A stretch of DNA of 53,263 nucleotides from Flavobacteriales bacterium (GCA_016787995.1 JAEUTB010000205.1:1-53263); one strand, 5' to 3'. Positions 2,939-53,263 are shown, numbered from the stretch's first letter. Program-made: numbers and translations. The notes: a model not told the origin generated them from the sequence alone.

Positions 2939-3715
2939 TCACCGAACGCCATCCAACCATTCCTTGAAGGCCTTCGCCTTCTCGCGGCTCACCATCACCT
3001 CTGCCGGGGCGGCCGGCTTCAGTTCCACCTTCAGCTTTCCGTTGAAGTGCTGGTGGACCACAGCGATGCATTTCACACAAGCGATGCATTGCCGGTTGAG
3101 GCGGTGGAAGACGCGCGGGTCCAGCTGTGCTTCGATCTCATCCAACGGCTGGTCGAGCAAGTGGCGTTTTCCGCTACAGGTGTGTAGTTCCGTGGTCCCG
3201 TCGCTGCTCAGGAAATACGCGATCTCTACCGTGGCGATGGGCAGCAATTTGGTACCCAGTTTCACCAGGAAGCGATCGCGGTAGCTCGGGCCACGGCCTT
3301 GCACGGCCTCCAGCAGGCGTTGGATATCGGGCAGGGGTGGTGTAGTGGTGGTGCGCACCAAGCCCATCAACTTGGACACACTGCGGGCCAATTCCTCCTC
3401 TTCGATTGGCTTCAGCAGGTAGTCTATGCCGTTGGTGCGGAAGGCTTCCAGCATGTACGCATCGTATGCGGTGGTGAAGATGATGGGGCAGGGGGGAGGT
3501 ACCTGCTTGTAGATCTCGAAGCTGAGCCCGTCGCTCAATTGGATATCGCTGAAGATCACGTCCGGCGCGGCGTTGGCGTTGAACCAATCGACGGCGGCTT
3601 CGATGGTGTCCACCACATCCACCACCTCCAGGTGCGGATGGTGCGTGCTCAACAGTCCGTGCAAGCGGCGGTAGGCCGGTGCTTCATCCTCGATGATCAG
3701 GGCCTTCAACTTCAT
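2939..3715 (-). CDS. LytR/AlgR-family response regulator (REC + LytTR)
   Basis: ALIIEDE, FSDIQLSDG, FTTAYD and YLLKP receiver motifs; LDPRVFHRLNRQCI..VSREKA LytTR motif; ATG at 3715. Confidence 0.95.
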   Translation of the reverse strand: MKLKALIIEDEAPAYRRLHGLLSTHHPHLEVVDVVDTIEAAVDWFNANAAPDVIFSDIQLSDGLSFEIYKQVPPPCPIIFTTAYDAYMLEAFRTNGIDYLLKPIEEEELARSVSKLMGLVRTTTTPPLPDIQRLLEAVQGRGPSYRDRFLVKLGTKLLPIATVEIAYFLSSDGTTELHTCSGKRHLLDQPLDEIEAQLDPRVFHRLNRQCIACVKCIAVVHQHFNGKLKVELKPAAPAEVMVSREKAKAFKEWLDGVR

Positions 3716-4749
3716 CACACGCGGGCTTCGTGTTCGGCGAGTTGGAGCAAGGGCAGCGCCACCAAGAAGTGTTCTCGGGTCTCGATCACGTCCACCGGTC
3801 GTTCGCTGAGGTAGGCGTAGCGCTGCCGAACGTTGCTCAGTCCGGTGCCAGTACCTTCCACGGTGCCTTGCTTGCGGTGCAGGCTGTTGCGCACCACCAA
3901 TGTTCGACCGTTCTCCACATGGATGTCCACTTGCAAGGGCGATGCCGTGCTGGCCACATTGTGTTTCAAGGCGTTCTCCAACAGCAGCTGCAGCGTGAGA
4001 GGTGCAATGAGTAATTGCCTGTGCTCCTTGGCCACGTTCACCGTGATGCGCAAGCTGTCGGCGAAGCGAACCTTCATCAGGTCGATATAGGCTTGCGTGA
4101 AATCGAGTTCGGTGCCGAGGTCCACCACTTCCTTCTCCTTGTGCTGTAGGATGTAGCGGTACACGTGGCTGAGGTTCTTGGTGAAGCGTGCGGCCTGGTC
4201 GGCGTCCTCGTGGATCAAGGCCACCAGCGTGTTGAGGCTGTTGAAGAGGAAGTGCGGGGAGACCTGGTTCTTCAGCATGTCCAGCTCGGTACGCAGTTGG
4301 CGGCTTTTGAGCGCCTCCGCTTCGATGGCCTGGTGCTTCCACATGGTGAAGAAGTAGCCCGCTTCGTACAAGGTTCCCACCACCAAGGTGGCACCAAAGC
4401 ACTTGATCAGGTTCATACGCCACTCACCCGTCTTGTAGGCACTGGGTTCCAGCCCTGCAGCATCGAGGATCGTGCAGGCCATGATATCCACCGTGATGAT
4501 GTACGTGCTGAGCGCAACGACCGTGATCATGATGCGTTGGCCGGTGCGCTCGAAGCCGGGAAAGCGCTGCCTGAAGTAGCCGATGATCATGTAGCAGCCT
4601 TGCCAAATGACCGCTGTGATCCCCAGTGTGATGGTGAAGCCCAGAACGGTCGGCATCTCCGTGTGGAACAAGAAGCTCAGAACAACGGCGAGCAATGGGA
4701 TGCCGATGATCCGGGGCCAGGGTTCCTGAAAGAGGTTGAAGCGTGCCAT
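3715..4749 (-). CDS. LytS/YehU-type membrane sensor histidine kinase
   Basis: four TM segments, LKNQVSPHFLFNSLNTL H-box, LQLLLENALKHN, GTGTGLSNV; overlaps the response regulator start. Confidence 0.93.
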   Translation of the reverse strand: MARFNLFQEPWPRIIGIPLLAVVLSFLFHTEMPTVLGFTITLGITAVIWQGCYMIIGYFRQRFPGFERTGQRIMITVVALSTYIITVDIMACTILDAAGLEPSAYKTGEWRMNLIKCFGATLVVGTLYEAGYFFTMWKHQAIEAEALKSRQLRTELDMLKNQVSPHFLFNSLNTLVALIHEDADQAARFTKNLSHVYRYILQHKEKEVVDLGTELDFTQAYIDLMKVRFADSLRITVNVAKEHRQLLIAPLTLQLLLENALKHNVASTASPLQVDIHVENGRTLVVRNSLHRKQGTVEGTGTGLSNVRQRYAYLSERPVDVIETREHFLVALPLLQLAEHEARV

Positions 4750-4803
4750 GGAATTGAACGCTCGAAAGTACCGCGATGCTACTGAAAGCGCGTTTGTGGG
4801 CGA

Positions 4804-4854
4804 ATGAAGCGTAGGGATCCTGGGTTGAAGCGTGATCCTGCCTCTATGAAGCGT
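4804..4854. promoter_or_regulatory. putative LytTR operator: three 9-bp direct repeats with 12-bp spacers
   Basis: ATGAAGCGT 4804, TTGAAGCGT 4825, ATGAAGCGT 4846 (exact 21-bp period) between the divergent kinase and receptor genes. Confidence 0.7.
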
Positions 4855-5005: not shown

Positions 5006-7402
5006 ATGTCTCCCCTTCGTTTACGCTCCCTGTTCAGCGCGGCACTGTTGCTGCCGTCCCTGCTCTTCGCCCAAACGCAGGTGGTGAAGGGCACTGTGAA
5101 GGATGCCGATTCACAAATGACCCTTCCCGGTGCCACGGTAGTGCTCTTGGGCAGCGATCCCATCATGGGCGCCACCACGGACATGGACGGTCGCTTCCGG
5201 CTCGATCAGGTGCCCTTCGGTAGGCAACAGCTACAGGTAAGCTTCCTCGGCTACAAGCCCACGGTGATCCCCAATGTCCTGGTGACCGCCGGAAAGGAAG
5301 TGGTGCTTGACATCGCGCTGGTCGCTTCGGTGGAAAGCCTGAAGGAAGTGGAGATCACCTCGGAGCGGGGCAAGGACCGCACGGTGAACGAGCTGGCCAA
5401 GGTGAGCGCCCGTACGTTCAGCCTGGAGGAAGTGACGCGCTACAGCGGCGGACGCAACGACGTGGCCCGCCTCGCGACCAACTTCGCTGGTGTGAGCGCC
5501 GCCAACGATGCGCGCAACGATATTGTCGTGCGGGGCAACTCACCCACTGGGCTGCTTTGGCGCATCGACGGGTTGCCCATCGGCACCACCAACCACTTCG
5601 GCACGCTGGGCACCACGGGCGGACCGGTGAGCGCGCTCAATACCAACCTGCTTCGCACCAGTGATTTCCTCAGTGGTGCCTTCCCCGCGGAATACGGCAA
5701 CGCCAACGCCGCTGTGTTCGACGTGAAGTTCCGAAGTGGGAATACCGACGAACATGAGTTCACCGCGCAGCTGGCAGCCTTCAGTGGCGCGGAGTTCATG
5801 GCCGAAGGACCGATCAGCAGGAAGAACCAGTCGTCCTACCTGGTCAGCTACCGGTATGGTATCGCGGGTGCTGCAGCTACGGGTACCAGCGCGATCCCCT
5901 ACTTCCAAGACCTGGCCTTCAAGCTCAACTTCGGTAAGAGCAAATTGGGACGCTTCGAGCTCTTCGGCATGGGCGGTCGCAGCAACATCGACTTCATCGG
6001 TGCGGAACTGGATAGCACAGACCTGTTCGCCGACCCCACCGTGGATAGCTACTTCACCTCAGATGTAGCGCTCATCGGCCTTTCACACTTCCTCCAGCTC
6101 GATGAGAAGAGCTACCTGAGGTCCACGGTCGGTACCACCTACTTGGGTACTTCGTTCCTACAGGACAACATCATCGGTGGTGCGAGCGACCAGAACGCTG
6201 TGCGCTACCGGGCCACCGAAGCCTTGGACAATGAACAGCGCTACACGGTGAGCAGCCAGTACAACCGCAAGTTCTCGCCGCGCTTCAGTCTGCGTGCAGG
6301 GGTGCTGAACGAGGTGTACGACCTGGATGTGGACTGGACGGACCGCGACCGCCGCGCAGGAATTCCCGACGTGAACGGCGATGGCATCCCTGACTTCTTC
6401 GTACAGGTGCGTGATGTACAGGGCACCATCAACCTCTTTCAGGCTTACGCACAAGGTGAATACAAGTTCACCGACGAGCTGAGCTTCACAGCTGGATTGC
6501 ATGGGCAATACCTCGACTTCAACGAGGATGTGATGGTGGCCCCGCGCACCGCGCTTGCCTGGCAGTTCCGTCCGCGTCAACGGGTAACATTGGCTTACGG
6601 GCTGCATGGTCAGCTGGCCTCGTTACCCGTGTTGCTCTTCACCGACCCGATCACCGGCGCGAACAACCGCGACCTGGAGTTCCAGAAGGCTCACCACGTT
6701 GTGCTGGCCTACGATCATCGTTTCGAAGGCGACTGGCGGGTGAAGCTGGAGGGCTATCATCAGTGGTTGTACGACCTTGGCATCGAGGACACCACCAGCA
6801 GCTACAGCGTCGTGAACGAGGGTGCGGACTTCATCTTCAGCGAACGCGGTGGACTGCTGAGCAATGGCACGGGCCGCAACTTCGGTGTGGAACTGACGGT
6901 GGAGAAGTTCTTGAGCAAGGGCTATTACGCATTGCTCACCACCTCGGTCTTCGATTCGCGCTACACGAGCAGTGATGGCGTGGAACGCAACACCGGCTTC
7001 GCGAACGACTATGTCTTTAATGCCTTGTTCGGGAAGGAGTGGGGCATCGGCAAGGACAAGCGCAACGCCCTCACGTTCGATACCAAGTTCACCACCAGCG
7101 GCGGTCGGCCCTTCAGCCCCATTGATCTGGAGGCCACACGCGCCAACCTGGGCCGTGAGGTGTACGTGGATGATCAGGCCTACAGCAAGCGCTACGATGC
7201 CTATTTACGGTTGGATGTGAAGTTCGGTGTGCGCATCAATGGCAAGGGCGGCAAGGTGAGCCACCAGTTTTTCATGGACCTACAGAACGTGACGGATCGT
7301 GAGAACATTTTTGTTGAACGGTACAACCGCGTCACTGACCGCATCAACCCCGTTTACCAGAATGGCTTCTTCCCGGACTTCATGTACCGGGTTCAGTTCT
7401 GA
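5006..7402 (+). CDS. TonB-dependent outer membrane receptor (N-terminal carboxypeptidase-regulatory-like domain, plug, barrel)
   Basis: signal peptide, VKGTVKDA..GATTDMDGRF, plug IVVRGNSP..NHF, FPAEYGNA, C-terminal YRVQF; ATG 5006. Confidence 0.93.
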   Translation: MSPLRLRSLFSAALLLPSLLFAQTQVVKGTVKDADSQMTLPGATVVLLGSDPIMGATTDMDGRFRLDQVPFGRQQLQVSFLGYKPTVIPNVLVTAGKEVVLDIALVASVESLKEVEITSERGKDRTVNELAKVSARTFSLEEVTRYSGGRNDVARLATNFAGVSAANDARNDIVVRGNSPTGLLWRIDGLPIGTTNHFGTLGTTGGPVSALNTNLLRTSDFLSGAFPAEYGNANAAVFDVKFRSGNTDEHEFTAQLAAFSGAEFMAEGPISRKNQSSYLVSYRYGIAGAAATGTSAIPYFQDLAFKLNFGKSKLGRFELFGMGGRSNIDFIGAELDSTDLFADPTVDSYFTSDVALIGLSHFLQLDEKSYLRSTVGTTYLGTSFLQDNIIGGASDQNAVRYRATEALDNEQRYTVSSQYNRKFSPRFSLRAGVLNEVYDLDVDWTDRDRRAGIPDVNGDGIPDFFVQVRDVQGTINLFQAYAQGEYKFTDELSFTAGLHGQYLDFNEDVMVAPRTALAWQFRPRQRVTLAYGLHGQLASLPVLLFTDPITGANNRDLEFQKAHHVVLAYDHRFEGDWRVKLEGYHQWLYDLGIEDTTSSYSVVNEGADFIFSERGGLLSNGTGRNFGVELTVEKFLSKGYYALLTTSVFDSRYTSSDGVERNTGFANDYVFNALFGKEWGIGKDKRNALTFDTKFTTSGGRPFSPIDLEATRANLGREVYVDDQAYSKRYDAYLRLDVKFGVRINGKGGKVSHQFFMDLQNVTDRENIFVERYNRVTDRINPVYQNGFFPDFMYRVQF

Positions 7403-7411
7403 TCGACAAGA

Positions 7412-7480
7412 AGTTGGCGGTCAGCAGTAGGCAGTACCTGTAACTCAACTGCCTACTGCGAACTGCCAACTGGTCACTGC
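7412..7480. repeat. heptamer-periodic inverted repeat / hairpin after the receptor gene
   Basis: arms 7412-7435 and 7448-7471 are complementary at 21/24 positions and are built from 7-mers (AGTTGGC, GGTCAGC, AGTAGGC / ACTGCCT, ACTGCGA, ACTGCCA, ACTGGTC). Confidence 0.7.
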
Positions 7481-7519
7481 GCAAAACGAACAACTCGATC
7501 ACCGATCGTTCAACCCCCA

Positions 7520-8335
7520 ATGCAAAAGATCATCCTCATCACCGGCGCCAGCAGTGGCATGGGCAAGGCCTTCGCCAAGCGCCTCATCAACGAAGGGCAC
7601 ATCGTCTACGGAGCCGCGCGCCGCGTGGACCAGATGCAGGACCTCGAACAAGCCGGTGGGCGCGCCATCGCACTCGACATCACCGATGACGCCTCCATCA
7701 CCGCTGCGGTCGAACAGGTCATTGGCGAGCAAGGTCGGATCGATGTGCTCATCAATAATGCAGGTTATGCCATCTACGGCGCGGTGGAGGAGACCACCTT
7801 GGCCGATGCGCGCAGGCAGTTCGAGGTGAACATCTTCGGACTGGGGCGCATCACACAACTGGTGGTGCCACACATGCGGAAGCAGAAGAAGGGCCGGATC
7901 ATCAACGTCAGCAGCATGGGCGGTAAGATGTACACCCCGCTCGGAGCTTGGTACCACGCCACCAAACATGCGTTGGAAGGCTGGAGCGATTGCCTGCGCT
8001 TGGAGTTGAAGCCTTTCGGTATCGACGTGGTCATCATCCAACCGGGCATCATCAAGACCGAATTCGCGGACGTGATGACCGGTCCGATGTTGCAGCGATC
8101 GGGTGTGGGACCCTACGGAGAGTTGGCGCGCAAGGTGGCCAAGGGCGCAGAGAACGGCATGGCCAATGGTCGGGGTTCGCGTCCGGAGGTGATCGCGGCA
8201 TTGGTATCGAAGACGGTACATGCACGAACGCCGCGTACGCGCTATGCAGGAGGCTTCCTGGCCAAACCAGTGATGTGGTTGCGCATCTACCTCGGCGATC
8301 GTTTCTTCGATAAGATGATCATGAAGGCGGCCTGA
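7520..8335 (+). CDS. short-chain dehydrogenase/reductase
   Basis: TGASSGMG, NNAG, YHATK (YxxxK). Confidence 0.93.
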   Translation: MQKIILITGASSGMGKAFAKRLINEGHIVYGAARRVDQMQDLEQAGGRAIALDITDDASITAAVEQVIGEQGRIDVLINNAGYAIYGAVEETTLADARRQFEVNIFGLGRITQLVVPHMRKQKKGRIINVSSMGGKMYTPLGAWYHATKHALEGWSDCLRLELKPFGIDVVIIQPGIIKTEFADVMTGPMLQRSGVGPYGELARKVAKGAENGMANGRGSRPEVIAALVSKTVHARTPRTRYAGGFLAKPVMWLRIYLGDRFFDKMIMKAA

Positions 8336-8351
8336 TCAGCAAGGAACCACC

Positions 8352-8711
8352 ATGAGCACATTGCCCACCTCGTTCCACCTCTCCATCACCGGACTTCGCG
8401 TGAAGCCCGGAATCATGAACCGCCTGCGCTTTCAGTACCACGCGGTGCGCTCGTTCATGCAGGCCCAGAAAGCGGATGGCGTGCTCCATGTGGCCGCGAA
8501 ACGCGTTCATGGTGTGGAGCATACCGTCACCGCCTGGCGTGATCGTGAGGCCATGCTGGAGTTCATGCGCAGCGGACCGCACTTGGAAGCGATGAAGGCC
8601 TTTCACCGGATCGCTGAGGGAAGCACGTTGAGCGAGCAGGCTGATCGGATCCCGGAATGGCCTGAAGTACATCGCCGTTGGAAGGAGCGTGGTGTACGGT
8701 ATGTTCGGTGA
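8352..8711 (+). CDS. DUF3291/ABM-like dimeric alpha-beta barrel protein
   Basis: TVTAWRDREAMLEFMRSGPHLEAMK resembles the ABM/DUF3291 W..H motif. Confidence 0.6.
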   Translation: MSTLPTSFHLSITGLRVKPGIMNRLRFQYHAVRSFMQAQKADGVLHVAAKRVHGVEHTVTAWRDREAMLEFMRSGPHLEAMKAFHRIAEGSTLSEQADRIPEWPEVHRRWKERGVRYVR

Positions 8712-8848
8712 GGACGTTTGACCGGTCGTGGACTTGGGATCGGGCTTATGGGTCCCTACCTTGGGATGACTTTTTGCGAATGCAGGTTGTGACCCCTAGG
8801 CACATCCTTCGTCGAAAGAACCAAGACCAAAATCAAACACCAAAGTCC

Positions 8849-9274
8849 ATGCTCGATCAACTCCTCTCCAGCCTCCAAAGCCAGGCCGTTCCCCAACTCA
8901 TCAGCAAGTTCGGGTTGAACGAGCAACAGGCCGGTGGCTCCATCAATGCGGCTGCCGATAGCGTGAAAGAAGCCCTGGGTGGCAGCGATGGCTTCGGTCT
9001 AGATGACGCCCTCAGCCTCTTCAGCAGCGCGAAGAACTCGGCCGGTGCCGATGGCCTGTTGAACAACATCGGAGGTCTGCTCCAGAACAAGCTCACCGGT
9101 CAAGTGGGCCTGGATGCCGGTAAGGCTAGTGGCGTGGCAGCCCTGTTGCTCCCGATGCTCACCGACCTGGTCTCCAAACACGTGGGCGGGGATGCCAAGA
9201 ACCTGCAGTCCCTGCTCGGCGGAGGTGGATTGGCGGGGATGGCGAAAGGCCTGCTCGGCAACCTCTTCAAGTAG
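8849..9274 (+). CDS. Gly/Leu-rich hypothetical protein (DUF937-like)
   Basis: MLDQLLS start, GLNEQQA/GLDAGKA internal repeats, C-terminal GLLGNLFK. Confidence 0.7.
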   Translation: MLDQLLSSLQSQAVPQLISKFGLNEQQAGGSINAAADSVKEALGGSDGFGLDDALSLFSSAKNSAGADGLLNNIGGLLQNKLTGQVGLDAGKASGVAALLLPMLTDLVSKHVGGDAKNLQSLLGGGGLAGMAKGLLGNLFK

Positions 9275-9390
9275 ATCACACGTTCGCTCCGGACGTTGCG
9301 GCCGTCTTGTTCAGCGTGAACAGGGCGGCCATTCCTTTTGTTATGCTTCCGACCTACCTTGGTCGAACACTTCGCGAAAAACTCTCCACG

Positions 9391-10479
9391 ATGAAGTCCG
9401 TCCCGCTGTTCACCGGTGTATCGCTGCTCCTCCTGCTCACCGCCTGCAATGTGAACAAGGTGGTCGAGAAGCGGAACCTGAGATCGTTCGAAGAGAGTGG
9501 CATGGTGCAGCGCACCTTTATCGATGCTGCTGGTCCACACTTCACGTGGGTGAGCAAAGACCTTGGTTCCGGCGCCAAACCGAAGTTGATGTTGGTGCAT
9601 GGCATCACCAGCAGCAGCACCATGTGGGCAGGGAATCTCGCCGGTCTTTCGGAGCGTTTCGACCTGATCGTACCTGACTTGATCGGACACGGTAAGACCA
9701 CTGCGCAATGGAGCGGTTCCAGCGTGGACGTGCAAGTCGCGCACCTGGCCTTGCTGCTGGATAGTCTGGGTGTGAAGGAGCCCGTGTACGTGGTGGGCAA
9801 TTCTTACGGCGGTGCCATCAGTGCGAACTTCGCCGAACAACACCCGCATCGCACACGGGCCTTGGTCATTTACGATGGGCCTGCGAGCGATTACACCAGT
9901 GCCATCGCCGATAGTGTGGCACGCAGTCGAGGCGCAACGGACATCGCCGATCTGTTCACTCCGGAGAACCCCGATGAGATGTACCGCCTCATGGCCACCA
10001 GCCTCTACGAGCCTCCCAAGGTGCCCGGGTTCGCTCGAAAGCAGTTGTTCAAGAAGTTCTCCGCCCATCAGTCCACCTATCTGGGTCTGTTGCAGGACCT
10101 GTTGAAGAACGAACAGCGCTATGCACAGAAGCACTATTTGTGGACCATGCCGGTCTACGTGCTGTGGGGTGAAGGGGACAAGCTCATCCCATTATCGGTG
10201 GGTCGTGGTATCGCGACGCGCAATGATCTGCCAGCTGACCATTTGATCATCATTCCGAAAGCCGGGCATGCTGCCAGCGTGGAACAGAAGGAGGTCTTCG
10301 AAGGGCACCTGAACAGGATCTTGAAGGATCCGCCTTGTACGGACGAGAAGCGGAGGACCGATGGCCCCTGCACCATGGAGTACGATCCCTACTGCGGCTG
10401 CGATGGCAAGACCTACCCGAATCGCTGCGGGGCTTGGCGTGCTGGTGTGCAGTTGGTATCGCGGGGGGAGTGCCAATAG
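9391..10479 (+). CDS. lipoprotein alpha/beta hydrolase with C-terminal Kazal-type domain
   Basis: lipobox LLTAC; LVHG, PDLIGHG, GNSYGG nucleophile elbow, WGEGD, AGH; C-terminal CTMEYDPYCGCDGKTYPNRC..GEC. Confidence 0.9.
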   Translation: MKSVPLFTGVSLLLLLTACNVNKVVEKRNLRSFEESGMVQRTFIDAAGPHFTWVSKDLGSGAKPKLMLVHGITSSSTMWAGNLAGLSERFDLIVPDLIGHGKTTAQWSGSSVDVQVAHLALLLDSLGVKEPVYVVGNSYGGAISANFAEQHPHRTRALVIYDGPASDYTSAIADSVARSRGATDIADLFTPENPDEMYRLMATSLYEPPKVPGFARKQLFKKFSAHQSTYLGLLQDLLKNEQRYAQKHYLWTMPVYVLWGEGDKLIPLSVGRGIATRNDLPADHLIIIPKAGHAASVEQKEVFEGHLNRILKDPPCTDEKRRTDGPCTMEYDPYCGCDGKTYPNRCGAWRAGVQLVSRGECQ

Positions 10480-47891: not shown

Positions 47892-48139
47892 CTCCATCTG
47901 CCATCGTCCCTGCGATCAACCCTGACAGTGGACCTTTCGTGCGGGGGTATGATGGGAGCGTCATGTACCGCTCGAGGCGCGGGATTTGACGAACGCGGAG
48001 AACGACTTTGTCGGAAGGTCACCATCGTCAGGCAAAGCATGGTGACACCCTCCTGGTCACCTATAGGCGCTGTTCGCGGGGTACGGGGCGTTGGCTATTT
48101 TCGGCGGGGTCAGATCACCACCCTCCTCGGATCCTGCCG

Positions 48140-49144
48140 ATGCATCCCACCACCACCCAGCAGATCATCGGCACCCTCAGTGCCGGTCTCGCCAGCATCC
48201 TCTTCTTCATCCGGCTGCTGCCATTCCTGGCTGAGTGGATCACGAAGGAGACGCACAGCGACCGATGGGCGGCACCCGCCGTGAACATCCTGGCCTCCAT
48301 CTGGGGGCTCATGATGATCGCGCTGCTCTGCATGACGGCCAGCGGTGGTTTCGACTGGATACGACTTGGACGCGGCAAGCTCTACCTGCTCACCGTGGCA
48401 GCGGCGTTCGCGCTGGCGGTCGCCTCCTACGTGTTCATCGCCTTTTACCTGCGGCCCGGCTTCACGCCGCGCGGCCTCTACAGCCCGTTCCACTACCTCA
48501 TCCTGTTCTCCACCGTGCTACTGGTGGTGGTCAGCTTGAACCAGAAGCTCGTGCCGGGGATCACCGTGAAGTGGTTGCTTCGGCCATGGACGTGGTTCAC
48601 CGCGTTGAGCCTCTTGGGCAGCCTGATCTTCGCAGGCCAATGGATCGCCAACAACGGCGTTCGCGGCTTTTCCGGTGTCGCCATGCGGATCGTCCGGATG
48701 CTACCCGCTTCCGAAGAGGAGCTCGCGCGGATCGCACAGCTCGATCCGAAGAACGACTTTAGCAAGCTGCTTGGGTATGCGAACGTTGATGAGAAACCGG
48801 CCGTGTGCGATGCTGCCACGGCGCGCCTGCGTTCGGATCCGGAGTTCGTGGAGCGCATGGCCCTCATGCTGGATTCCGGCTATGCGGACCCTGCGCTGGC
48901 CTTTGTGCGCGACGCGGAGCTGACCCCCGATGAACAAGCACGCTTCGCCCGGCCCACGCTGAACGCCCTGGGACGTTGGGTCAACAGTGCATCCCCGCCC
49001 AACTACACCACGTCGGAGAACCTGAAGCGTACGCGGCGCTTCGGCGATGAACTGTTCCGTGTGCTCCCCGGGAAGTTCGCGGGCACCGGCGTCGACTTCT
49101 CCGAGCTGGAGGGGTGGTATAAAGAGAAGATGGAAGTAGAATAG
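48140..49144 (+). CDS. hypothetical membrane protein
   Basis: about five N-terminal TM segments plus a helical C-terminal domain; ATG 48140. Confidence 0.72.
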   Translation: MHPTTTQQIIGTLSAGLASILFFIRLLPFLAEWITKETHSDRWAAPAVNILASIWGLMMIALLCMTASGGFDWIRLGRGKLYLLTVAAAFALAVASYVFIAFYLRPGFTPRGLYSPFHYLILFSTVLLVVVSLNQKLVPGITVKWLLRPWTWFTALSLLGSLIFAGQWIANNGVRGFSGVAMRIVRMLPASEEELARIAQLDPKNDFSKLLGYANVDEKPAVCDAATARLRSDPEFVERMALMLDSGYADPALAFVRDAELTPDEQARFARPTLNALGRWVNSASPPNYTTSENLKRTRRFGDELFRVLPGKFAGTGVDFSELEGWYKEKMEVE

Positions 49145-49163
49145 CGGACCCTCGAACGCACCG

Positions 49164-50321
49164 ATGACGATCCCCGATCCCTTCCGCCAGCAGCTCGCGG
49201 AATTCCCCGCACCCTTGCGCGCGCTTGTTGAAGCCGAGCTCGAAGCGGGCAACACCATCGTGGCCATCGAGAACGGCTTTCCCGCTGCACCCTGCGGTGC
49301 CTCGGTGAAACTGGCCAAGGCTGTCAGCGATGTACGTCGGCGATCAACCGCGGAGGTGAGCTTCTGCGCGCGCAACAACCCGTCGTACGCGGGCGAGTTC
49401 ACCACTGAGCAGCGCCACTTCTTCGTGTTGGAACCGCCGTTGCCACCGGAACCACCGCCGGACATGGACGCCATCCGCAAAGCGCTAGAACCGAAGCCGG
49501 ATGCCTTGTCCCAGCTCGCGCAGCGCGAAGCCCGTTCAGGTCCGGAGGTCCTGCGCTCGATGATGCAAGAACGCGTTATCGCAGAACCCGCTAAGCCCGC
49601 CCCCGTTCCGCAAGGCGCGCTGACCTCCACAGAAACCGCCACCAGCGTCATTCGCCTGCTGCACTTCCGCGACCCACGCCCGCCGCACGAGGTGCAGTTC
49701 GCTGTGGAGCGCGACCTGATGACCCTGTTCGCCGCTTCCATGCAGAACGATAGGCTTGTCCTCACGGCCAGTGCCAAGGTGGTCGGTGCCCAGTACCACT
49801 TCGAACTGCGCTTCGAAGCGGCGCTGCCGCACACCCACTGTTATTCCCTCCGCGTCGCGACCTCTTGGGCCGATGCGGCGGCCACGCATCACGACTATTA
49901 CAGCCATACCGCGGACAGTTGGTTCAGCCACTGGACACGCGGGTTCATGCCCGCCGATCCGCCCGCCGCGGAGGCCAGTGCGCCCGAACGGTACCAAGCC
50001 ATCTGCGCCGCCGCGTTGAATGCAGAGGCACACCTCGACTCCGTGCCAGCCTTGCAACAGACCATTGTGGCCGCCATTAAGCAGGGCGCACGCTTCACCA
50101 CCTCGCACAAGGAAGGCGGCACCAACATCACCTGGAACGGCGCACACTTCGTACGCTCCGACTACGGCGACTACCCGGATCACATCACTTACGCGAGCGA
50201 GGCGCACTTCCTGGATGCGCTGCGAAAGTTCTACGATTGGGAGACGTCGCGGAACATGTATCCAGAAAAGGTGTCGGAGCTGGTGGCGTGGAGGCTGATG
50301 CTAAGGTTGATGCGGAGGTAG
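49164..50321 (+). CDS. hypothetical protein whose 3' end is triplicated downstream
   Basis: 385-aa ORF with host-like codon use; C-terminus LRKFYDWETSRNMYPEKVSELVAWRLMLRLMRR. Confidence 0.8.
   Translation: MTIPDPFRQQLAEFPAPLRALVEAELEAGNTIVAIENGFPAAPCGASVKLAKAVSDVRRRSTAEVSFCARNNPSYAGEFTTEQRHFFVLEPPLPPEPPPDMDAIRKALEPKPDALSQLAQREARSGPEVLRSMMQERVIAEPAKPAPVPQGALTSTETATSVIRLLHFRDPRPPHEVQFAVERDLMTLFAASMQNDRLVLTASAKVVGAQYHFELRFEAALPHTHCYSLRVATSWADAAATHHDYYSHTADSWFSHWTRGFMPADPPAAEASAPERYQAICAAALNAEAHLDSVPALQQTIVAAIKQGARFTTSHKEGGTNITWNGAHFVRSDYGDYPDHITYASEAHFLDALRKFYDWETSRNMYPEKVSELVAWRLMLRLMRR
50231..50321 (+). repeat. direct repeat copy 1 (current 3' end of the gene)
   Basis: aligns without gaps to 51865-51955 and 53115-53205. 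Confidence 0.9.
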
Positions 50322-50346
50322 TGGAGTAGGAGAACGGAACGGTCGC

Positions 50347-50742
50347 TCAGTTGCCCAGCCACGGTATCTCCTCCACCAGCACCGCGTTGCCTGCCTTGTC
50401 GAAATAGGTACACGTCATGGCAGTGGTATCCACCACCCAACGCTGCACACCTGCGGCGCGGGCCTCGTTGCAGATGGTCGGATAGTCCGACAGCCCTTGC
50501 TGATGGTGCTTGATGCGAGCGATGAAGTGCTCACGTTCCACGCGGTCGGCGATGGCGTGTTCGGCATGGGTGGGCGGAGAGCTGAGGCGCTGGTCGGCGC
50601 CTTCGTAGTCCGTATGGCCATCGGTGAGCCAGGTGGTGTAGCGGCGCACACCGAGTTGGATAAAGGTCTGCACCAGGGCAGGGAAATCGGCGCCGCTCTT
50701 CACGTGGCTCCGTGCTTCGGCAAGTTGCTCAAGGGTGAACAT
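50347..50742 (-). CDS. DUF1398-family protein
   Basis: MFTLEQL..HVKSGADFP..GV..HQQG.SDY..GV..WVVD..MTCTYFD. Confidence 0.88.
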   Translation of the reverse strand: MFTLEQLAEARSHVKSGADFPALVQTFIQLGVRRYTTWLTDGHTDYEGADQRLSSPPTHAEHAIADRVEREHFIARIKHHQQGLSDYPTICNEARAAGVQRWVVDTTAMTCTYFDKAGNAVLVEEIPWLGN

Positions 50743-50818
50743 GATCGTTGTGTTTTGTGACCGCAAAGCAGCACCAGAGCCAGGTCGTTCTCCTTGTAAA
50801 AAGTCGGCTATTGAGCCT

Positions 50819-50958
50819 TCCACCTTTTGCTTCGCCAAAAGGTGGAGCCAAAAGGCGCCCACGGCCAAAGCCACTGCCCGGCTCGCGCAAAGCCCGCAGC
50901 ACGGGCTCCCGAGCCGGGCGTGTCCCTGCCTACCGGCAGGCAGGCGCGCTGGCCGTGG
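50819..50958. repeat. structured interspersed repeat with nested CCTGCCTACCGGCAGGCAGG palindrome
   Basis: stems 50819-29/50836-46, 50859-67/50950-58, 50876-85/50910-19, 50891-96/50902-07; palindrome at 50925-50944. Confidence 0.75.
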
Positions 50959-51057
50959 ACACCCACCGCACGTTCTACTTGAGGTGTAGCAGGTGTACTG
51001 GTATCGCGTGCGGACCTACTCCATCATCATGCGCTGATCCTGTCCCAACATGGTGCC

Positions 51058-51837
51058 CTAGTCTTCAGTCGGCCCGAAGAAGCGCTGCGGTGCCTCACCG
51101 GTGAATGTGCGGAAGGCCTTGATGAAATGCGCCTGGTCATAGAAGCCGGCCTCCAATGCAGTGTCGAGCAAAGCCGTACCGGGGACATGAGCGCTGAGCA
51201 CCTGTCGCATGCGCACGATGCCCGCGTACTGCTTGGCCGTGGCACCTACCGCCTTGCGGAAGCGCCGCTCCAACGGACTGCGGCTGGTGTGCAACTGCTC
51301 GGCGAGCTGCTCGATGCGGATGCTGCCCTTGCTCCGGTGGATGAGCGCCAACGCGCCGACCACCAACGCATCGGGCTTCGCGGGCCGCAGGCGTTCCAGC
51401 AGAAAGGCCTCCACCACCGCTACTCTGTTGGCATCGTTGGCAGCTTCCTCCAAGCGTTCTTCCAACAACACCAGCTCCGAACGCAGCATGAACTGCTCCA
51501 GCGAGAGGCTCCGGCCGAAAAGCTCGTTGAGGGGCTCGGGGAAGAAGGCCGTGGCACCCGCCTCGCGGAAGTATACCAGCACGGTACCGGTGCCCGCTTC
51601 GCTCTGGAAGGTAGCGGCCGCGCCGTGTAGACCGGTGACGCCGGACCGATGCAACTTACGCGGACCACCCGGCCCCACGCGCTTTACCGCACCGCTGAAC
51701 TGGAAGCCCAGGACCAGTCCCGTGCCCGGCAGCACGTTAAAGGGAACATCGCTGGTGGACCGGACCACGGCATAGCGCTCCACGAAGGGCCGCAAGGGCT
51801 CGCACGGCAACGCGATGGACGGTGCTGGCTGAGCCAT
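51058..51837 (-). CDS. AraC-family transcriptional regulator
   Basis: P..PLRPFVERY N-terminal domain, LERRFRKAVG, AGFYDQAHFIKAFRTFTG. Confidence 0.92.
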   Translation of the reverse strand: MAQPAPSIALPCEPLRPFVERYAVVRSTSDVPFNVLPGTGLVLGFQFSGAVKRVGPGGPRKLHRSGVTGLHGAAATFQSEAGTGTVLVYFREAGATAFFPEPLNELFGRSLSLEQFMLRSELVLLEERLEEAANDANRVAVVEAFLLERLRPAKPDALVVGALALIHRSKGSIRIEQLAEQLHTSRSPLERRFRKAVGATAKQYAGIVRMRQVLSAHVPGTALLDTALEAGFYDQAHFIKAFRTFTGEAPQRFFGPTED

Positions 51838-51864
51838 GCACGAAGATGGGACAGGCGAGGGATA

Positions 51865-51955
51865 CTACGACCAGGAGACGCCGAAGAGCGTGTATCCCGA
51901 AATGGTCTCGGGCTTCGTGGCGTGGAAACTTATGCTGCGCTTGCTCTGGAAGTAG
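51865..51955 (+). repeat. direct repeat copy 2 (orphan gene tail)
   Basis: encodes YDQETPKSVYPEMVSGFVAWKLMLRLLWK*. Confidence 0.88.
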
Positions 51956-51965
51956 TGCGGTTGAC

Positions 51966-52307
51966 TTACTTCCCTTTTTTGGAACGCAGCTCAGCCGCCA
52001 ACAGCTTCATCGCCTTGGTATCCACGGTGTCGTAGTCGCTCTTGTCGTAGATGCTGAGAAGATAGACCTCGGCATCCTCGGTCACCACGTAGGTGATCAC
52101 CCGACCGCCGCCGCTTTTCCCTTTGCCTTTGCTGGCGATGGCCAAGCGGACCTTGTAAAGCCCATGGCCAAGCGCGGTACCCGTGGTCGGCTTCGCTTCC
52201 AGTTCCTTCTCCAGCTTCAACAGGTCCTTGCCCAGCGAACGATGGCGCTTGAGCATCGGGCGCAACTCCTTCACAAAGGCTGGCGTGGGGATGACCCTAT
52301 GCTTCAC
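51966..52307 (-). CDS. RelE/HigB-like type II toxin
   Basis: F.KEL..L..KVRLAIASKGKGKSGGGRVITY..YLLSIYDKS. Confidence 0.85.
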   Translation of the reverse strand: MKHRVIPTPAFVKELRPMLKRHRSLGKDLLKLEKELEAKPTTGTALGHGLYKVRLAIASKGKGKSGGGRVITYVVTEDAEVYLLSIYDKSDYDTVDTKAMKLLAAELRSKKGK

Positions 52308-52515
52308 GCAGCACGTCCTTCAGGGTCCGCTTCTTCAACTTGCCGGAACGCATGCGCGCTACCTGGTCCAGCGCAGTGCTCAGCGTGGAACGCAGCTTCA
52401 GCAACTGCTCGTAGTGCCGCAGCTTGTCAACAAGTTCGTTCCAGTCCTCCACGGGGATCTGCACGGCCTGCACGTTGCCGTCGGCATCGTTCACATAGCG
52501 CATCGGGACTTTCAT
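52297..52515 (-). CDS. putative cognate antitoxin
   Basis: 72 aa, YVNDADGNVQAVQIPVEDW..; overlaps the toxin start by 11 bp. Confidence 0.75.
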   Translation of the reverse strand: MKVPMRYVNDADGNVQAVQIPVEDWNELVDKLRHYEQLLKLRSTLSTALDQVARMRSGKLKKRTLKDVLREA

Positions 52516-52592
52516 GAACCAAAGGTATGCGAGGAGCACTGCATCACGGCCCCACCAAGTAGCGTCATACGCATGAATTTCTGGGACCGGCG

Positions 52593-52960
52593 TCACCCAC
52601 AACGAATGGTTCCCCTTCCTCGCAGCGCGTCGGCATCGTCCAGCAGGAGCAACTCGCCCATGCCCGATCGAAGAGCACGACATCGAAACCGTGCGTTGCA
52701 TGCAGTTCGGCGATCAGGCTGTTGCGCAGGTCGGCGACCTCTTTTGATCCGTGGTCCGGTTCACCGATGAGCACGATGTCCTTGCCTTCGAGGTCCGGGC
52801 CCAAGGGGCTCCAGTCGCAGTCGGTGAAAACGGAGTCGGTGTCGATCGACCGCACCTGTGCGGCCAGTTCGCGCGCCTGTTCGGTGGTCCAATGCTGCGC
52901 GCATACCGGGGTGCAGGCCCCAAGCCCGAGCCAGAGGAAGGGAGACAAGCACCGGCGCAT
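52593..52960 (-). pseudogene. erythromycin-esterase-family (EreA/ChaN-like) pseudogene
   Basis: signal peptide, IVLIGEPDHG..LH..GFDVVLF; 1-bp frameshift near 52667 at FESG, then truncation. Confidence 0.7.
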
Positions 52961-53114
52961 GGTGCGAAGATGAGACGGAGTGCCTGTCCGCGGAGGGTAA
53001 CAGGGCCGTAGCGTTCGGTGGATCGTGGGCTGAGGCGAAGCTAGGCTTGCGACTTCAGCGAGCGTCCTGTTCCGCATCCGCCGAGGCAGAATTCCTGGAA
53101 GTGCTGCGGAAATT

Positions 53115-53205
53115 CTACGACTGGGAGACGTCGAAGAACGTGTATCCCGGAAAGGTCTCCGACCTCGTGGCGTGGAAGCTCATGCTGCGCTTGCTGCGGA
53201 CGTAG
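53115..53205 (+). repeat. direct repeat copy 3 (orphan gene tail; homology extends to ~53080)
   Basis: encodes EAEFLEVLRKFYDWETSKNVYPGKVSDLVAWKLMLRLLRT*. Confidence 0.9.
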
Positions 53206-53263
53206 CGCGACGGACCCGTCCGTATGTGGCAGACCTCTTGGGGGCGGCTTGCGGGACCTGTCG

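What the first reader, a model, noticed from the sequence alone, without database searches (positions are those of the whole stretch)
49164..53205. Three copies of one gene's 3' end bracket two cargo modules: candidate 3'-end-replacement accretion array
Seen: the last 91 bp of the hypothetical gene 49164-50321 (50231-50321) recur without gaps at 51865-51955 and 53115-53205, each ending at the same TAG. By hand count the identities are 74/91 (copy 1 vs 3), 77/91 (2 vs 3) and 66/91 (1 vs 2). Differences between copies 1 and 3 are mostly synonymous or conservative, whereas copy 2 carries decay-type changes (W>Q, S>P, E/D>G). Each interval starts right after the stop codon and holds opposite-strand cargo: DUF1398 + AraC, then a RelE-type toxin/antitoxin + esterase pseudogene. 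The current tail uses rarer codons (AGG, CTA) than the orphan tails. Inference: incoming DNA carrying an allelic 3' end plus cargo repeatedly recombined into this gene and pushed the old tail downstream, as in Rhs orphan-tip or att-duplicating island accretion, but in an uncharacterised gene with no integrase in view. A TA pair would stabilise such an array.
Basis: partly seen in the sequence, partly recalled or inferred. Interest (0 to 1): 0.78.

Follow-up and report, generated by a model that had tools for sequence, protein, structure and literature searches.

The report
Orphan gene tails mark island growth
Short leftover copies of the end of one gene sit between small blocks of imported genes, many of them toxin-antitoxin or defence genes, and record how a variable genome island grew with no integrase in sight.

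Summary
The three tail copies exist with exactly the stated identities (74, 77 and 66 of 91). The array probably continues on contig C198, giving 4-5 orphan tails in an island of about 13 kb. That island lies between the 385-aa gene and a convergent PaaN-like gene.

Related Flavobacteriales MAGs carry 22 orphan tails in all:
- All 8 that share a stretch with a live gene point the same way as it.
- 20 of 22 end just past the stop codon.
- Their 5' ends vary, so lengths run from about 50 to 390 nt.

The same cargo blocks follow live or orphan tails in different genomes. I found no recombinase, no hairpin site and no extra synonymous constraint in the tail.

The pattern is general. The PaaN-like flank, a core HD-domain gene and several other genes also have orphan ends next to small inserts. 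One aminotransferase gene has an orphan 5' head instead. The inserts are often toxin-antitoxin pairs.

Best reading (0.62): DNA from relatives carrying a gene end plus adjacent cargo inserts by homology-anchored, duplicative recombination (Campbell-type, ends-in or HFIR). Homologous recombination then shuffles the blocks, and toxin-antitoxin pairs resist loss. This is a new variant of displacement and accretion arrays. The mechanism is inferred, not shown.

The parts
48008..49144 (+). 378-aa predicted multi-pass membrane protein. It is the conserved upstream partner of the 385-aa gene.
   Evidence: It is co-conserved with the gene as one block (window 48124-50323) in G006, G008, G012, G016 and G022. 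No Pfam or NCBIfam family.
49164..50321 (+). Live 385-aa gene of unknown function, forming the left flank of the variable island.
   Evidence: More than 465 homologues, all named hypothetical and mostly from Flavobacteriales MAGs. No Pfam or NCBIfam family. AF2 model pLDDT 75.5, with no recombinase or nuclease fold among Foldseek PDB hits (TM below 0.4).
50084..50333 (+). Live tail: the last 238 nt of the gene plus about 12 nt past the stop. This is the segment copied in the orphans.
   Evidence: nhmmer profile positions 3-252, E 1.8e-83.
50334..51862 (-). Cargo block 1: DUF1398 gene (50347-50745), a repeat element of about 150 nt (50814-50972) and an AraC-type regulator (51058-51837).
   Evidence: Pfam. 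The same DUF1398-AraC pair lies in L075 (77-88% nt identity) without flanking tails of this gene.
51863..51968 (+). Orphan tail 2 (profile positions 148-253), decayed.
   Evidence: nhmmer E 9e-21. It has 16 differences in 90 nt from the nearest live allele, spread [4,6,6] over codon positions. The stop codon is kept.
51956..52530 (-). Cargo block 2a: a RelE-type toxin (51966-52307) with a RelB-like antitoxin (52297-52515).
   Evidence: Pfam. The same cassette follows the live gene in L038 (80%) and an orphan tail in L042 (88.8%), with the same left junction.
52531..53048 (-). Cargo block 2b: an unassigned ORF or fragment (52565-53077).
   Evidence: No family found. Run X4's contig leaves the window sequence at 52974.
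53049..53213 (+). Orphan tail 3 (profile positions 77-248), well preserved and of a foreign allele class.
   Evidence: nhmmer E 1.4e-40. It is 93% identical to the live tail of G006 and 81% to its own live tail.
53206..53263 (+). Start of cargo block 3, which encodes a protein with a type IX secretion C-terminal domain. The contig ends here.
   Evidence: The 50 nt after the stop are identical to those after orphan tails in L037 and L062. L062 8600-8723 matches window 53140-53263 at 97.6%, and L062 9237-9300 matches C198 1-64 at 98.4%, leaving a gap of 513 nt.

Best explanation
The tails are relics of repeated additive insertions at the edge of a variable island. They are not functional sites.

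The island lies between two convergent conserved genes: the 385-aa gene and a PaaN-like aldehyde dehydrogenase-MaoC gene. In different strains the DNA next to these genes differs, so the end of the flank gene is the only homology available.

Proposed steps:
1. DNA from a relative arrives carrying the flank gene's 3' part (from a random break x to the stop) plus the cargo next to it.
2. It recombines through that homology in an 'ends-in' or Campbell-type single crossover of a circularised fragment. Alternatively it uses homology on one side and an illegitimate join on the other (HFIR).
3. Cargo is therefore added rather than replaced, and the homologous segment is duplicated. One intact gene remains, and a 5'-truncated orphan lies on the far side of the new cargo.
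4. Repeats of this process, plus ordinary homologous recombination between tails of different arrays, build and shuffle the array.
5. Direct repeats invite deletion, so blocks that resist loss (toxin-antitoxin pairs) or are useful (defence genes, regulators) are the ones kept. Surviving orphans tend to be short and diverged.

Shown: the anatomy, the recurrence, the modular blocks, the mosaic identity, the absence of a recombinase or site signature, and the generality at other genes and at a 5' end.

Inferred: the recombination route, its dependence on RecA, the form of the incoming DNA, and the role of toxin-antitoxin pairs in retention.
For: ANATOMY
- 22 orphan tails were found in 12 stretches.
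- All 8 orphans that lie on a stretch with a live gene are co-oriented with it.
- Arrays without a live gene (L057 with 4, L062 with 5, L028 with 2, C198 with 2) are internally co-oriented.
- 20 of 22 end at profile positions 238-255, with the stop at 240. One ends at 200 and one is cut by the end of the locus.
- 5' starts range from position 2 to 189.
- 17 of 19 orphans examined keep a stop codon in place.

MODULARITY
- The RelE cassette follows window tail 2, the live gene of L038 and an orphan in L042.
- The flank after window tail 3 equals that after orphans in L037 and L062.
- The block after C198 tail 4708 equals that after the L057 orphan at 8173.
- The DUF5694/ChaN flank follows live genes in G012 and L036 and the orphan in G008.
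- An orphan's 5' limit goes with the block to its left: the short orphan after the T9SS-domain block has the same limit in C198, L057 and L062.
- An orphan's 3' part goes with the block to its right: window tail 3, the L037 orphan and L062 8578 are nearly identical over the last 70-100 nt while their 5' limits are at 77, 13 and 153.
- Between G000 and L062, identity within one block falls from about 99% to about 80%. Their live genes are about 82% identical.

ALLELIC ORIGIN
- Long orphans differ from the nearest live allele as [2,2,9], [2,2,7], [4,4,12], [2,2,9] and [3,2,10] by codon position.
- Live-versus-live comparisons sum to [70,56,193], the same bias.

NO DEDICATED MACHINERY FOUND
- None of 296 proteins scanned matches a tyrosine or serine recombinase family. 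There is one IS3-type rve (L036) and one topoisomerase IB upstream of the L057 array.
- A six-frame PF00589 search of G000, G006, G008, G022 and G023 puts no match on the island contigs or ranges. G000 has only two, on C163 and C239.
- None of 10 single-strand folds beats shuffles (z from -0.71 to +2.79).
- Synonymous-site entropy in the tail is 0.54-1.0, against 0.52-1.01 elsewhere in the gene.

GENERALITY
- The PaaN-like flank has 8 orphan 3' tails reaching its stop in 6 loci, all on its own strand and inside the island. In L065 a DUF5615/DUF433 pair lies between the live and orphan copies.
- The core HD-domain gene (present in 41 of 41 genomes) has orphan tails in G000, G008, G012, G019 and G022, and G027 is an empty site.
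- ValRS, a glyoxalase gene and genes on C60 and C243 each have one.
- An aminotransferase gene on C234 has an orphan 5' head with an MNT/HepT pair between it and the gene.
Against: - No step of the recombination was observed. Contigs of 4 runs showed no cassette-skipping or tail-to-tail joints, though contigs drop rare variants.
- The 3' limit just past the stop, with a loosely conserved 12 nt after it, in front of unrelated cargo is also what a fixed crossover site would give.
- The orphan nearest the live gene is the most decayed. That does not fit simple stepwise accretion at the live tail and needs block import or insertion at inner tails.
- In L054 the duplicated unit runs 142 nt past the stop, which looks more like a local tandem duplication.
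- Homology-driven insertion should favour long anchors, yet most orphans are short. The deletion-survivor argument for that is untested.
- Only ORFs passing my crude GC3-based caller went to Pfam. Serine recombinases were not searched in six frames.
- The genome-wide scan for orphan heads and tails is confounded by tandem paralogues, and only a few cases were checked by hand.
- These are MAGs. Linkage of L062 to L039 and of C198 to C240 rests on binning and colinearity.
Confidence: 0.62

Rival explanations
1. Site-specific cassette system acting in trans. A recombinase encoded elsewhere recognises a site in the last part of the tail or just past the stop, and it moves integrase-less cassettes in and out. 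This would resemble cis-mobilisable elements, SCC-type arrays at rlmH, or integron cassettes.
For: Strict co-orientation, a near-constant 3' limit just past the stop, a loosely conserved 12 nt after the stop in front of unrelated cargo, cassette-sized intervals of 0.6-4 kb, and the same cassette in different array positions.
Against: - No recombinase family among 296 proteins scanned, and no PF00589 match in the islands of 5 genomes.
- No hairpin signal in 10 folds.
- No extra synonymous conservation in live tails.
- Repeat lengths vary from about 41 to about 390 nt.
- The same pattern occurs at unrelated genes (PaaN-like, HD-domain, ValRS, glyoxalase) and at a 5' end, with no shared motif that I could see by eye.
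- The DUF1398-AraC block occurs in L075 without tails of this gene.
- No hit for the tail core in viral contigs.
Confidence: 0.15
2. Local origin. Tandem duplications span the gene end and downstream DNA, or full-length tandem paralogues erode from the 5' side. The duplicated cargo is later replaced.
For: In L054 the duplicated unit includes 142 nt of downstream flank. Live and orphan tails are each other's close relatives in L071 (94.9% over 217 nt) and G008 (92.3% over 169 nt).
Against: - No orphan exceeds about 130 of 385 codons, and no N-terminal remnants occur in the Flavobacteriales loci.
- Window tail 3 is closer to other species' live tails (93%, 90%, 89%) than to its own (81%).
- The cargo on the two sides of an orphan is unrelated.
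- Differences between G008's two copies are [2,2,9] by codon position, which is not what decay of a dead copy gives.
- Identical blocks occur in different array contexts in different genomes.
Confidence: 0.12
3. Assembly or binning artefact: strain mixtures joined at the shared tail sequence.
For: All sequences are metagenome assemblies. Some tails share identical runs of about 60 nt across genomes.
Against: - A chimeric join at a shared tail would swap downstream DNA. It would not create cargo-to-mid-gene junctions.
- Those junctions recur at the same base in independent assemblies.
- Run X4's own contig spans tail 2.
- Arrays lie inside long contigs, for example the 991,755-base contig G008:C3.
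Confidence: 0.02

Closest known systems
C-terminal displacement in Rhs loci, and sequential displacement of T6SS effector-immunity modules in Vibrio cholerae. Source: Kirchberger et al. 2017, PMC5361080, passages read. Jackson et al. 2009 is known to me only as cited there.
   Same: Incoming DNA anchored in a conserved upstream part pushes the old 3' part downstream. Strings of co-oriented orphaned 3' regions result. No integrase is involved. The authors propose homology-facilitated illegitimate recombination followed by homologous exchange of whole arrays.
   Different: In those systems the displaced ends are variable toxin tips kept with their immunity genes, and that retention explains the selection. 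Here the displaced tail is conserved and appears useless. The host gene is not a toxin gene by any test run. The cargo is unrelated to the host gene. Both island flanks, other genes and one 5' end show the same pattern.
Integrase-made att duplication and tandem accretion of islands at gene or tRNA 3' ends, including integrase-less cis-mobilisable elements. Source: the IME review PMC5704250, seen only in the search listing. Tycheposon-type partial-tRNA arrays and SCC arrays at rlmH are recalled, not checked.
   Same: Direct repeats derive from the 3' end of the target gene. The target gene stays intact. Several elements stack in tandem, and some units lack a recombinase.
   Different: No integrase is present in any occupied site examined. 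The repeats are long, of variable length and diverged, rather than a short identical core. Many unrelated targets are affected.
Chromosomal integron cassette arrays (general knowledge; the parallel is also drawn in PMC5361080).
   Same: Arrays of small cassettes are separated by a recurring element. Toxin-antitoxin cassettes are common, and new cassettes displace old ones.
   Different: There is no IntI and no attC-like hairpin. Cargo lies on both strands and includes multi-gene blocks with their own regulators. The recurring element is a gene fragment.
Integrase-free defence-island hotspots between core genes. Source: Hochhauser et al. 2023, PMC10121019, seen only in the search listing.
   Same: A variable, defence-rich island lies between conserved flank genes, without mobility genes.
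   Different: Here the flanks leave duplicated ends inside the island, which points to additive rather than replacement recombination. Whether such relics exist at those published hotspots I did not check.

Membership tests
Integron | An IntI tyrosine recombinase next to the array. | tested here: not met
   No PF00589 among the ORFs scanned. The six-frame search puts no match in the islands of G000, G006, G008, G022 or G023.
Integron | attC sites that fold as imperfect hairpins. | tested here: not met
   5 tails folded on both strands gave z-scores from -0.71 to +2.79 against shuffles.
Integron | Mostly single, promoterless, co-oriented ORF cassettes. | tested here: not met
   Cargo lies on both strands and includes blocks of 2 to 5 genes with regulators.
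Integrase-mediated island, tandem accretion or CIME | Direct repeats made from the 3' end of the target gene, with the gene kept intact. | tested here: met
Integrase-mediated island, tandem accretion or CIME | An integrase in at least some occupied sites. | tested here: not met
   None among the 296 proteins scanned nor. Only one IS3-type rve (L036). Serine recombinases were not searched in six frames.
Integrase-mediated island, tandem accretion or CIME | A short identical core at a fixed crossover point. | tested here: inconclusive
   The 3' limit is nearly constant (20 of 22 orphans). However, repeats are about 50-390 nt long and 70-95% alike, with no excess synonymous conservation.
Rhs / CDI / T6SS C-terminal displacement array | Co-oriented displaced 3' fragments downstream of one live gene. 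| tested here: met
Rhs / CDI / T6SS C-terminal displacement array | The host gene encodes a polymorphic toxin with a variable C-terminal tip. | tested here: not met
   No toxin family. The tail is among the conserved parts of the protein. Orphan peptides are near-identical to live ones.
Rhs / CDI / T6SS C-terminal displacement array | Each orphan tip is followed by its immunity gene. | tested here: not met
   Orphans are followed by unrelated cargo: TA pairs, regulators, redox enzymes and T9SS-domain proteins.
Homology-anchored additive recombination (Campbell-type, ends-in or HFIR) | Duplication of exactly the homologous segment, with dependence on RecA and no site specificity. | not testable with these tools
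   The pattern is consistent: variable repeat length, many targets, both gene ends. The reaction itself was not observed.

The most novel reading that the evidence does not exclude
These Flavobacteriales may have a dedicated, still unrecognised cassette-capture mechanism that acts at gene ends. It could be a trans-acting enzyme, or the conserved membrane-protein/385-aa gene pair itself. It would make staggered or polar cuts just past stop codons and fill in long, variable target duplications. That would amount to an integron-like platform without IntI or attC, one that preferentially moves toxin-antitoxin and defence cassettes.
Probability: 0.1. Interest if true: 0.9.

Novelty: new variant of a known kind. 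Interest (0 to 1): 0.62.

Why it matters
Many defence islands sit at fixed hotspots between core genes and carry no mobility genes, and how they gain genes is an open question. Here both flank genes leave dated, oriented relics of their own ends inside the island. These relics show that cargo was added next to the flank rather than swapped in.

The relics mark the limits of each imported block, so they could be used to reconstruct the order and the donors of acquisitions. If the same relics occur at integrase-free hotspots in other phyla, they would give a simple sequence signature for recombination-driven island growth. They would also offer an explanation for why toxin-antitoxin pairs crowd island edges: they hold repeat-flanked inserts in place.

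Tried and rejected
- attC-like hairpins: rejected. 10 folds gave no signal.
- DNA-level constraint in the live tail: not seen.
- The 385-aa protein as a recombinase or nuclease: no support. It matches no family, and the best Foldseek PDB matches are weak (TM below 0.4) and heterogeneous.
- A phage or plasmid attP carrying the tail: a degenerate 34-nt core pattern found nothing in viral contigs. The plasmid and phage BLAST collections were not searched.
- Excision or empty-site joints in public runs: contigs of X3, X4, X5 and X8 showed none across cassettes. The two small skips at 50744-50792 and 50865-50936 lie in the repeat element of block 1. Contigs cannot show rare forms.
- 'Esterase pseudogene': no family and no likeness to neighbouring ChaN/DUF5694 genes.
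- A tail-only replacement of the live gene: not seen.
- A motif shared between the tails of the 385-aa, HD-domain, ValRS and glyoxalase genes: looked for by eye only, nothing convincing.
- Literature: searches found no paper describing conserved orphan gene ends at both flanks of a defence island. Read in passages: PMC5361080, and PMC13617665, which has no such description. The search failed on syntax. Supplements were not consulted.

Full report
OBSERVATION

The window is the whole of contig C240 of a 3.30-Mb, 271-contig MAG with 59.6% G+C. The repeat finder returns one family of three direct copies at 50228-50325, 51862-51959 and 53112-53209. Copies 1 and 3 align over 124 nt.

A profile built from the live tails of seven genomes finds the two orphan copies at E 9e-21 and 1.4e-40.

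The cargo is as described for DUF1398, the AraC-type regulator and the RelE-type toxin. The antitoxin match is below Pfam's cut-off. The 'esterase pseudogene' could not be confirmed.

THE ARRAY IS LONGER THAN THE WINDOW

tblastn and the profile find further tails on contig C198:
- one at 723-892, which is frameshifted;
- one at 4708-4823;
- a weak remnant at 653-724.

C240's last 124 nt and C198's first 64 nt are both colinear with one contig of another MAG (L062), at 97.6% and 98.4%, leaving a 513-nt gap. The two contigs therefore very probably adjoin, but this is inferred.

The far end of C198 holds a PaaN-like aldehyde dehydrogenase-MaoC gene on the opposite strand. The same gene closes the region in G008, G022, G023, L058, L065 and L080.

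The locus is thus a variable island between two convergent conserved genes. It is about 1.6-1.9 kb in L080 and L065, and about 12-15 kb in G000, G008 and G022.

THE GENE

The 385-aa protein has more than 465 homologues, all unnamed and mostly from Flavobacteriales MAGs. It forms a unit with the upstream membrane-protein gene. It was found full-length in 5 of the 36 same-genus genomes searched, plus one more (G033) where it is split over two contigs.

It has no Pfam or NCBIfam family. The AF2 model (pLDDT 75.5) gives only weak, heterogeneous PDB matches and no recombinase or nuclease fold.

ANATOMY OF THE ORPHANS

Across the window, C198, 5 genus relatives, 30 genome-contig loci and 45 metagenome loci I count 22 orphan tails, plus the weak one.

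How often they occur:
- Among distinct loci with a live gene and at least 1 kb downstream, 6 of 26 have at least one orphan: the window, G008, L037, L042, L054 and L071.
- L038 has one within its 688 nt of downstream sequence.
- Five stretches hold orphans without a live gene: C198, L028 (2), L057 (4), L058 (1) and L062 (5).

Their form:
- All 8 orphans on a stretch with a live gene point the same way as it, and arrays are internally co-oriented.
- 20 of 22 end at profile positions 238-255, where the stop ends at 240.
- 17 of 19 examined keep a stop codon in register.
- 5' limits vary from position 2 to 189.
- tblastn shows none longer than about 130 codons, and no N-terminal remnants in the Flavobacteriales loci.

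This argues against erosion of full-length paralogues.

MODULAR BLOCKS

The same cargo follows different tails in different genomes:
- The RelE cassette follows window tail 2, the live gene of L038 and an orphan 6.6 kb out in L042.
- The sequence after window tail 3 equals that after orphans in L037 and L062.
- The block after C198's tail at 4708 equals that after an L057 orphan.
- The DUF5694/ChaN flank follows live genes in G012 and L036 but an orphan in G008.

Two linkage rules emerge. First, an orphan's 5' limit goes with the block on its left. The short orphan after the T9SS-domain block starts at the same base in C198, L057 and L062.

Second, an orphan's 3' part goes with the block on its right. 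Window tail 3, the L037 orphan and L062 8578 are nearly identical over their last 70-100 nt, although their 5' limits are at 77, 13 and 153. A single crossover between a resident tail and a fragment carrying a tail piece plus cargo would produce this arrangement.

Identity between G000 and L062 is about 99% in part of one block and about 80% in the rest. Their live genes are about 82% alike. The arrays are therefore mosaics made by homologous exchange.

Two strains with 99.9% identical genes (L045, L075) differ by a DUF1398-AraC block. That block is itself bounded by direct repeats of about 190 nt, which match the 3' end of another ORF.

SUBSTITUTION PATTERN

Long orphans differ from the nearest live allele mainly at third codon positions: [2,2,9], [2,2,7], [4,4,12], [2,2,9] and [3,2,10]. 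Live genes differ among themselves in the same way ([70,56,193]). Short orphans such as window tail 2 ([4,6,6]) show unbiased change.

So orphans were alleles of working genes when they diverged, and they decay afterwards.

Window tail 3 is 93% identical to G006's live tail but 81% to its own. The live tail's similarity to relatives tracks that of the gene body. I therefore cannot say that the live tail is the incoming one.

NO SIGN OF A DEDICATED SYSTEM

- None of 296 proteins scanned matches a tyrosine or serine recombinase family. There is one IS3-type transposase and one topoisomerase IB.
- A six-frame PF00589 search of five genomes finds nothing in the islands. G000 has only two matches, on other contigs.
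- Tails do not fold better than shuffles.
- Synonymous sites of live tails are no more conserved than the rest of the gene.
- The tail core is absent from viral contigs.
- Contigs of four runs show no cassette-skipping joints. That is weak evidence either way.

THE PATTERN IS GENERAL

- PaaN-like flank. It has 8 orphan 3' tails reaching its own stop in G008 (2), G022 (2), L028, L058, L065 and L054. All lie on its strand and inside the island. In L065 a DUF5615/DUF433 pair lies between the live and orphan copies.
- HD-domain gene. This core gene (present in 41 of 41 genus genomes) is followed in G000 by a ParE-type TA pair and an 87-nt orphan ending at the stop. G022, G019, G008 and G012 also have orphans around other cargo, and G027 is an empty site.
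- Other genes in G000. ValRS, a glyoxalase gene and genes on C60 and C243 each have one orphan tail.
- A 5' case. An aminotransferase gene on C234 has an orphan 5' head about 100 nt long upstream, with an MNT/HepT pair in between.

Of the seven intervals between the live 385-aa gene and its first orphan, four hold TA-family genes: G008, L037, L038 and L054.

MECHANISM

Several features fit recombination anchored in the only homology available at an island edge: many unrelated targets, both gene ends, variable repeat length, allelic orphans, mosaic blocks and no recombinase.

A fragment from a relative, holding a gene end plus the adjacent cargo, is added in one of two ways. One is a Campbell-type or ends-in event. 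The other uses one homologous and one illegitimate join. Only products that leave one intact gene survive, so relics sit at gene ends.

Repeats favour deletion, so addictive or useful cargo persists. Every step of this route is inferred.

A trans-acting site-specific enzyme remains possible (0.15). The near-constant 3' limit is its best argument. Local duplication explains a few cases, such as L054, but not the whole.

COMPARISON WITH KNOWN SYSTEMS

The nearest described processes are Rhs C-terminal displacement and the sequential displacement of T6SS effector-immunity modules, for which HFIR was proposed (PMC5361080, passages read).

The differences here are:
- a conserved, apparently useless tail;
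- a non-toxin host gene;
- unrelated cargo;
- relics from both flanks and at other genes.

It is not an integron, and it is not an integrase-made accretion by the tests above.

CAVEATS

All data come from MAGs and metagenome contigs. My gene calls are crude. The genome-wide scan was only partly curated. The C240-C198 junction and the linkage of L062 to L039 are inferred.

Noticed in passing
window 50814-50972: A repeat element of about 150 nt with inverted arms (50854-50878 and 50939-50963) lies between the DUF1398 and AraC genes. Copies occur in L075 (inverted), L045 and L050. Contigs of runs X4 and X8 break or pile up here, at depth 25-43 against 13.
   Followed up: partly
L001 (C198) 5694-9687: A CBASS-like operon lies at the inner end of the island. 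It holds a LexA/S24-type regulator, a nucleotidyltransferase with a weak match to the CBASS cyclase family (42 bits, far below the cut-off), a 232-aa unknown, and a 600-aa SAVED-domain protein.
   Followed up: partly
L108 (C66) about 3433-3562: An element of about 125 nt sits just after the orphan HD-domain tail. It recurs at 80-93% identity at many places in at least 10 genomes of the genus, so it looks like a small dispersed repeat.
   Followed up: no
L130 (C234:3001-5400) 300-1066: An orphan 5' head of an aminotransferase gene lies upstream of it, with an MNT (NTP_transf_2) / HepT pair inserted between the head and the intact gene. This mirrors the tail arrays.
   Followed up: yes
L024 (G022) 7185-8008: An insert of about 822 nt with a 90-aa ORF separates the membrane-protein gene from the 385-aa gene. 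About 21 nt of the window (49159-49179) match on both sides of it.
   Followed up: no
L048, L052 and other Verrucomicrobiota/Opitutaceae loci: The N-terminal part (residues 1-109) and the C-terminal part (about 150-385) of the protein family are encoded apart, and in L048 and L052 in reversed order. The protein therefore has two separable modules joined by a proline-rich linker.
   Followed up: no
L072 2653-4185: In this metagenome contig the gene reads on to 510 aa with a different end, so its tail is altered or fused. The near-identical L068 has the normal end.
   Followed up: no
L110 (C243:24001-27973): This region holds repeated heads and tails of a 313-aa gene around a Toxin-JAB1-domain ORF and a Sel1-repeat ORF. 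It is possibly a polymorphic-toxin locus with its own displacement array.
   Followed up: no
L057 3995-5074: A bacterial type IB topoisomerase gene lies about 1.9 kb upstream of a four-tail array that has no live gene on the stretch. This is probably coincidental.
   Followed up: no
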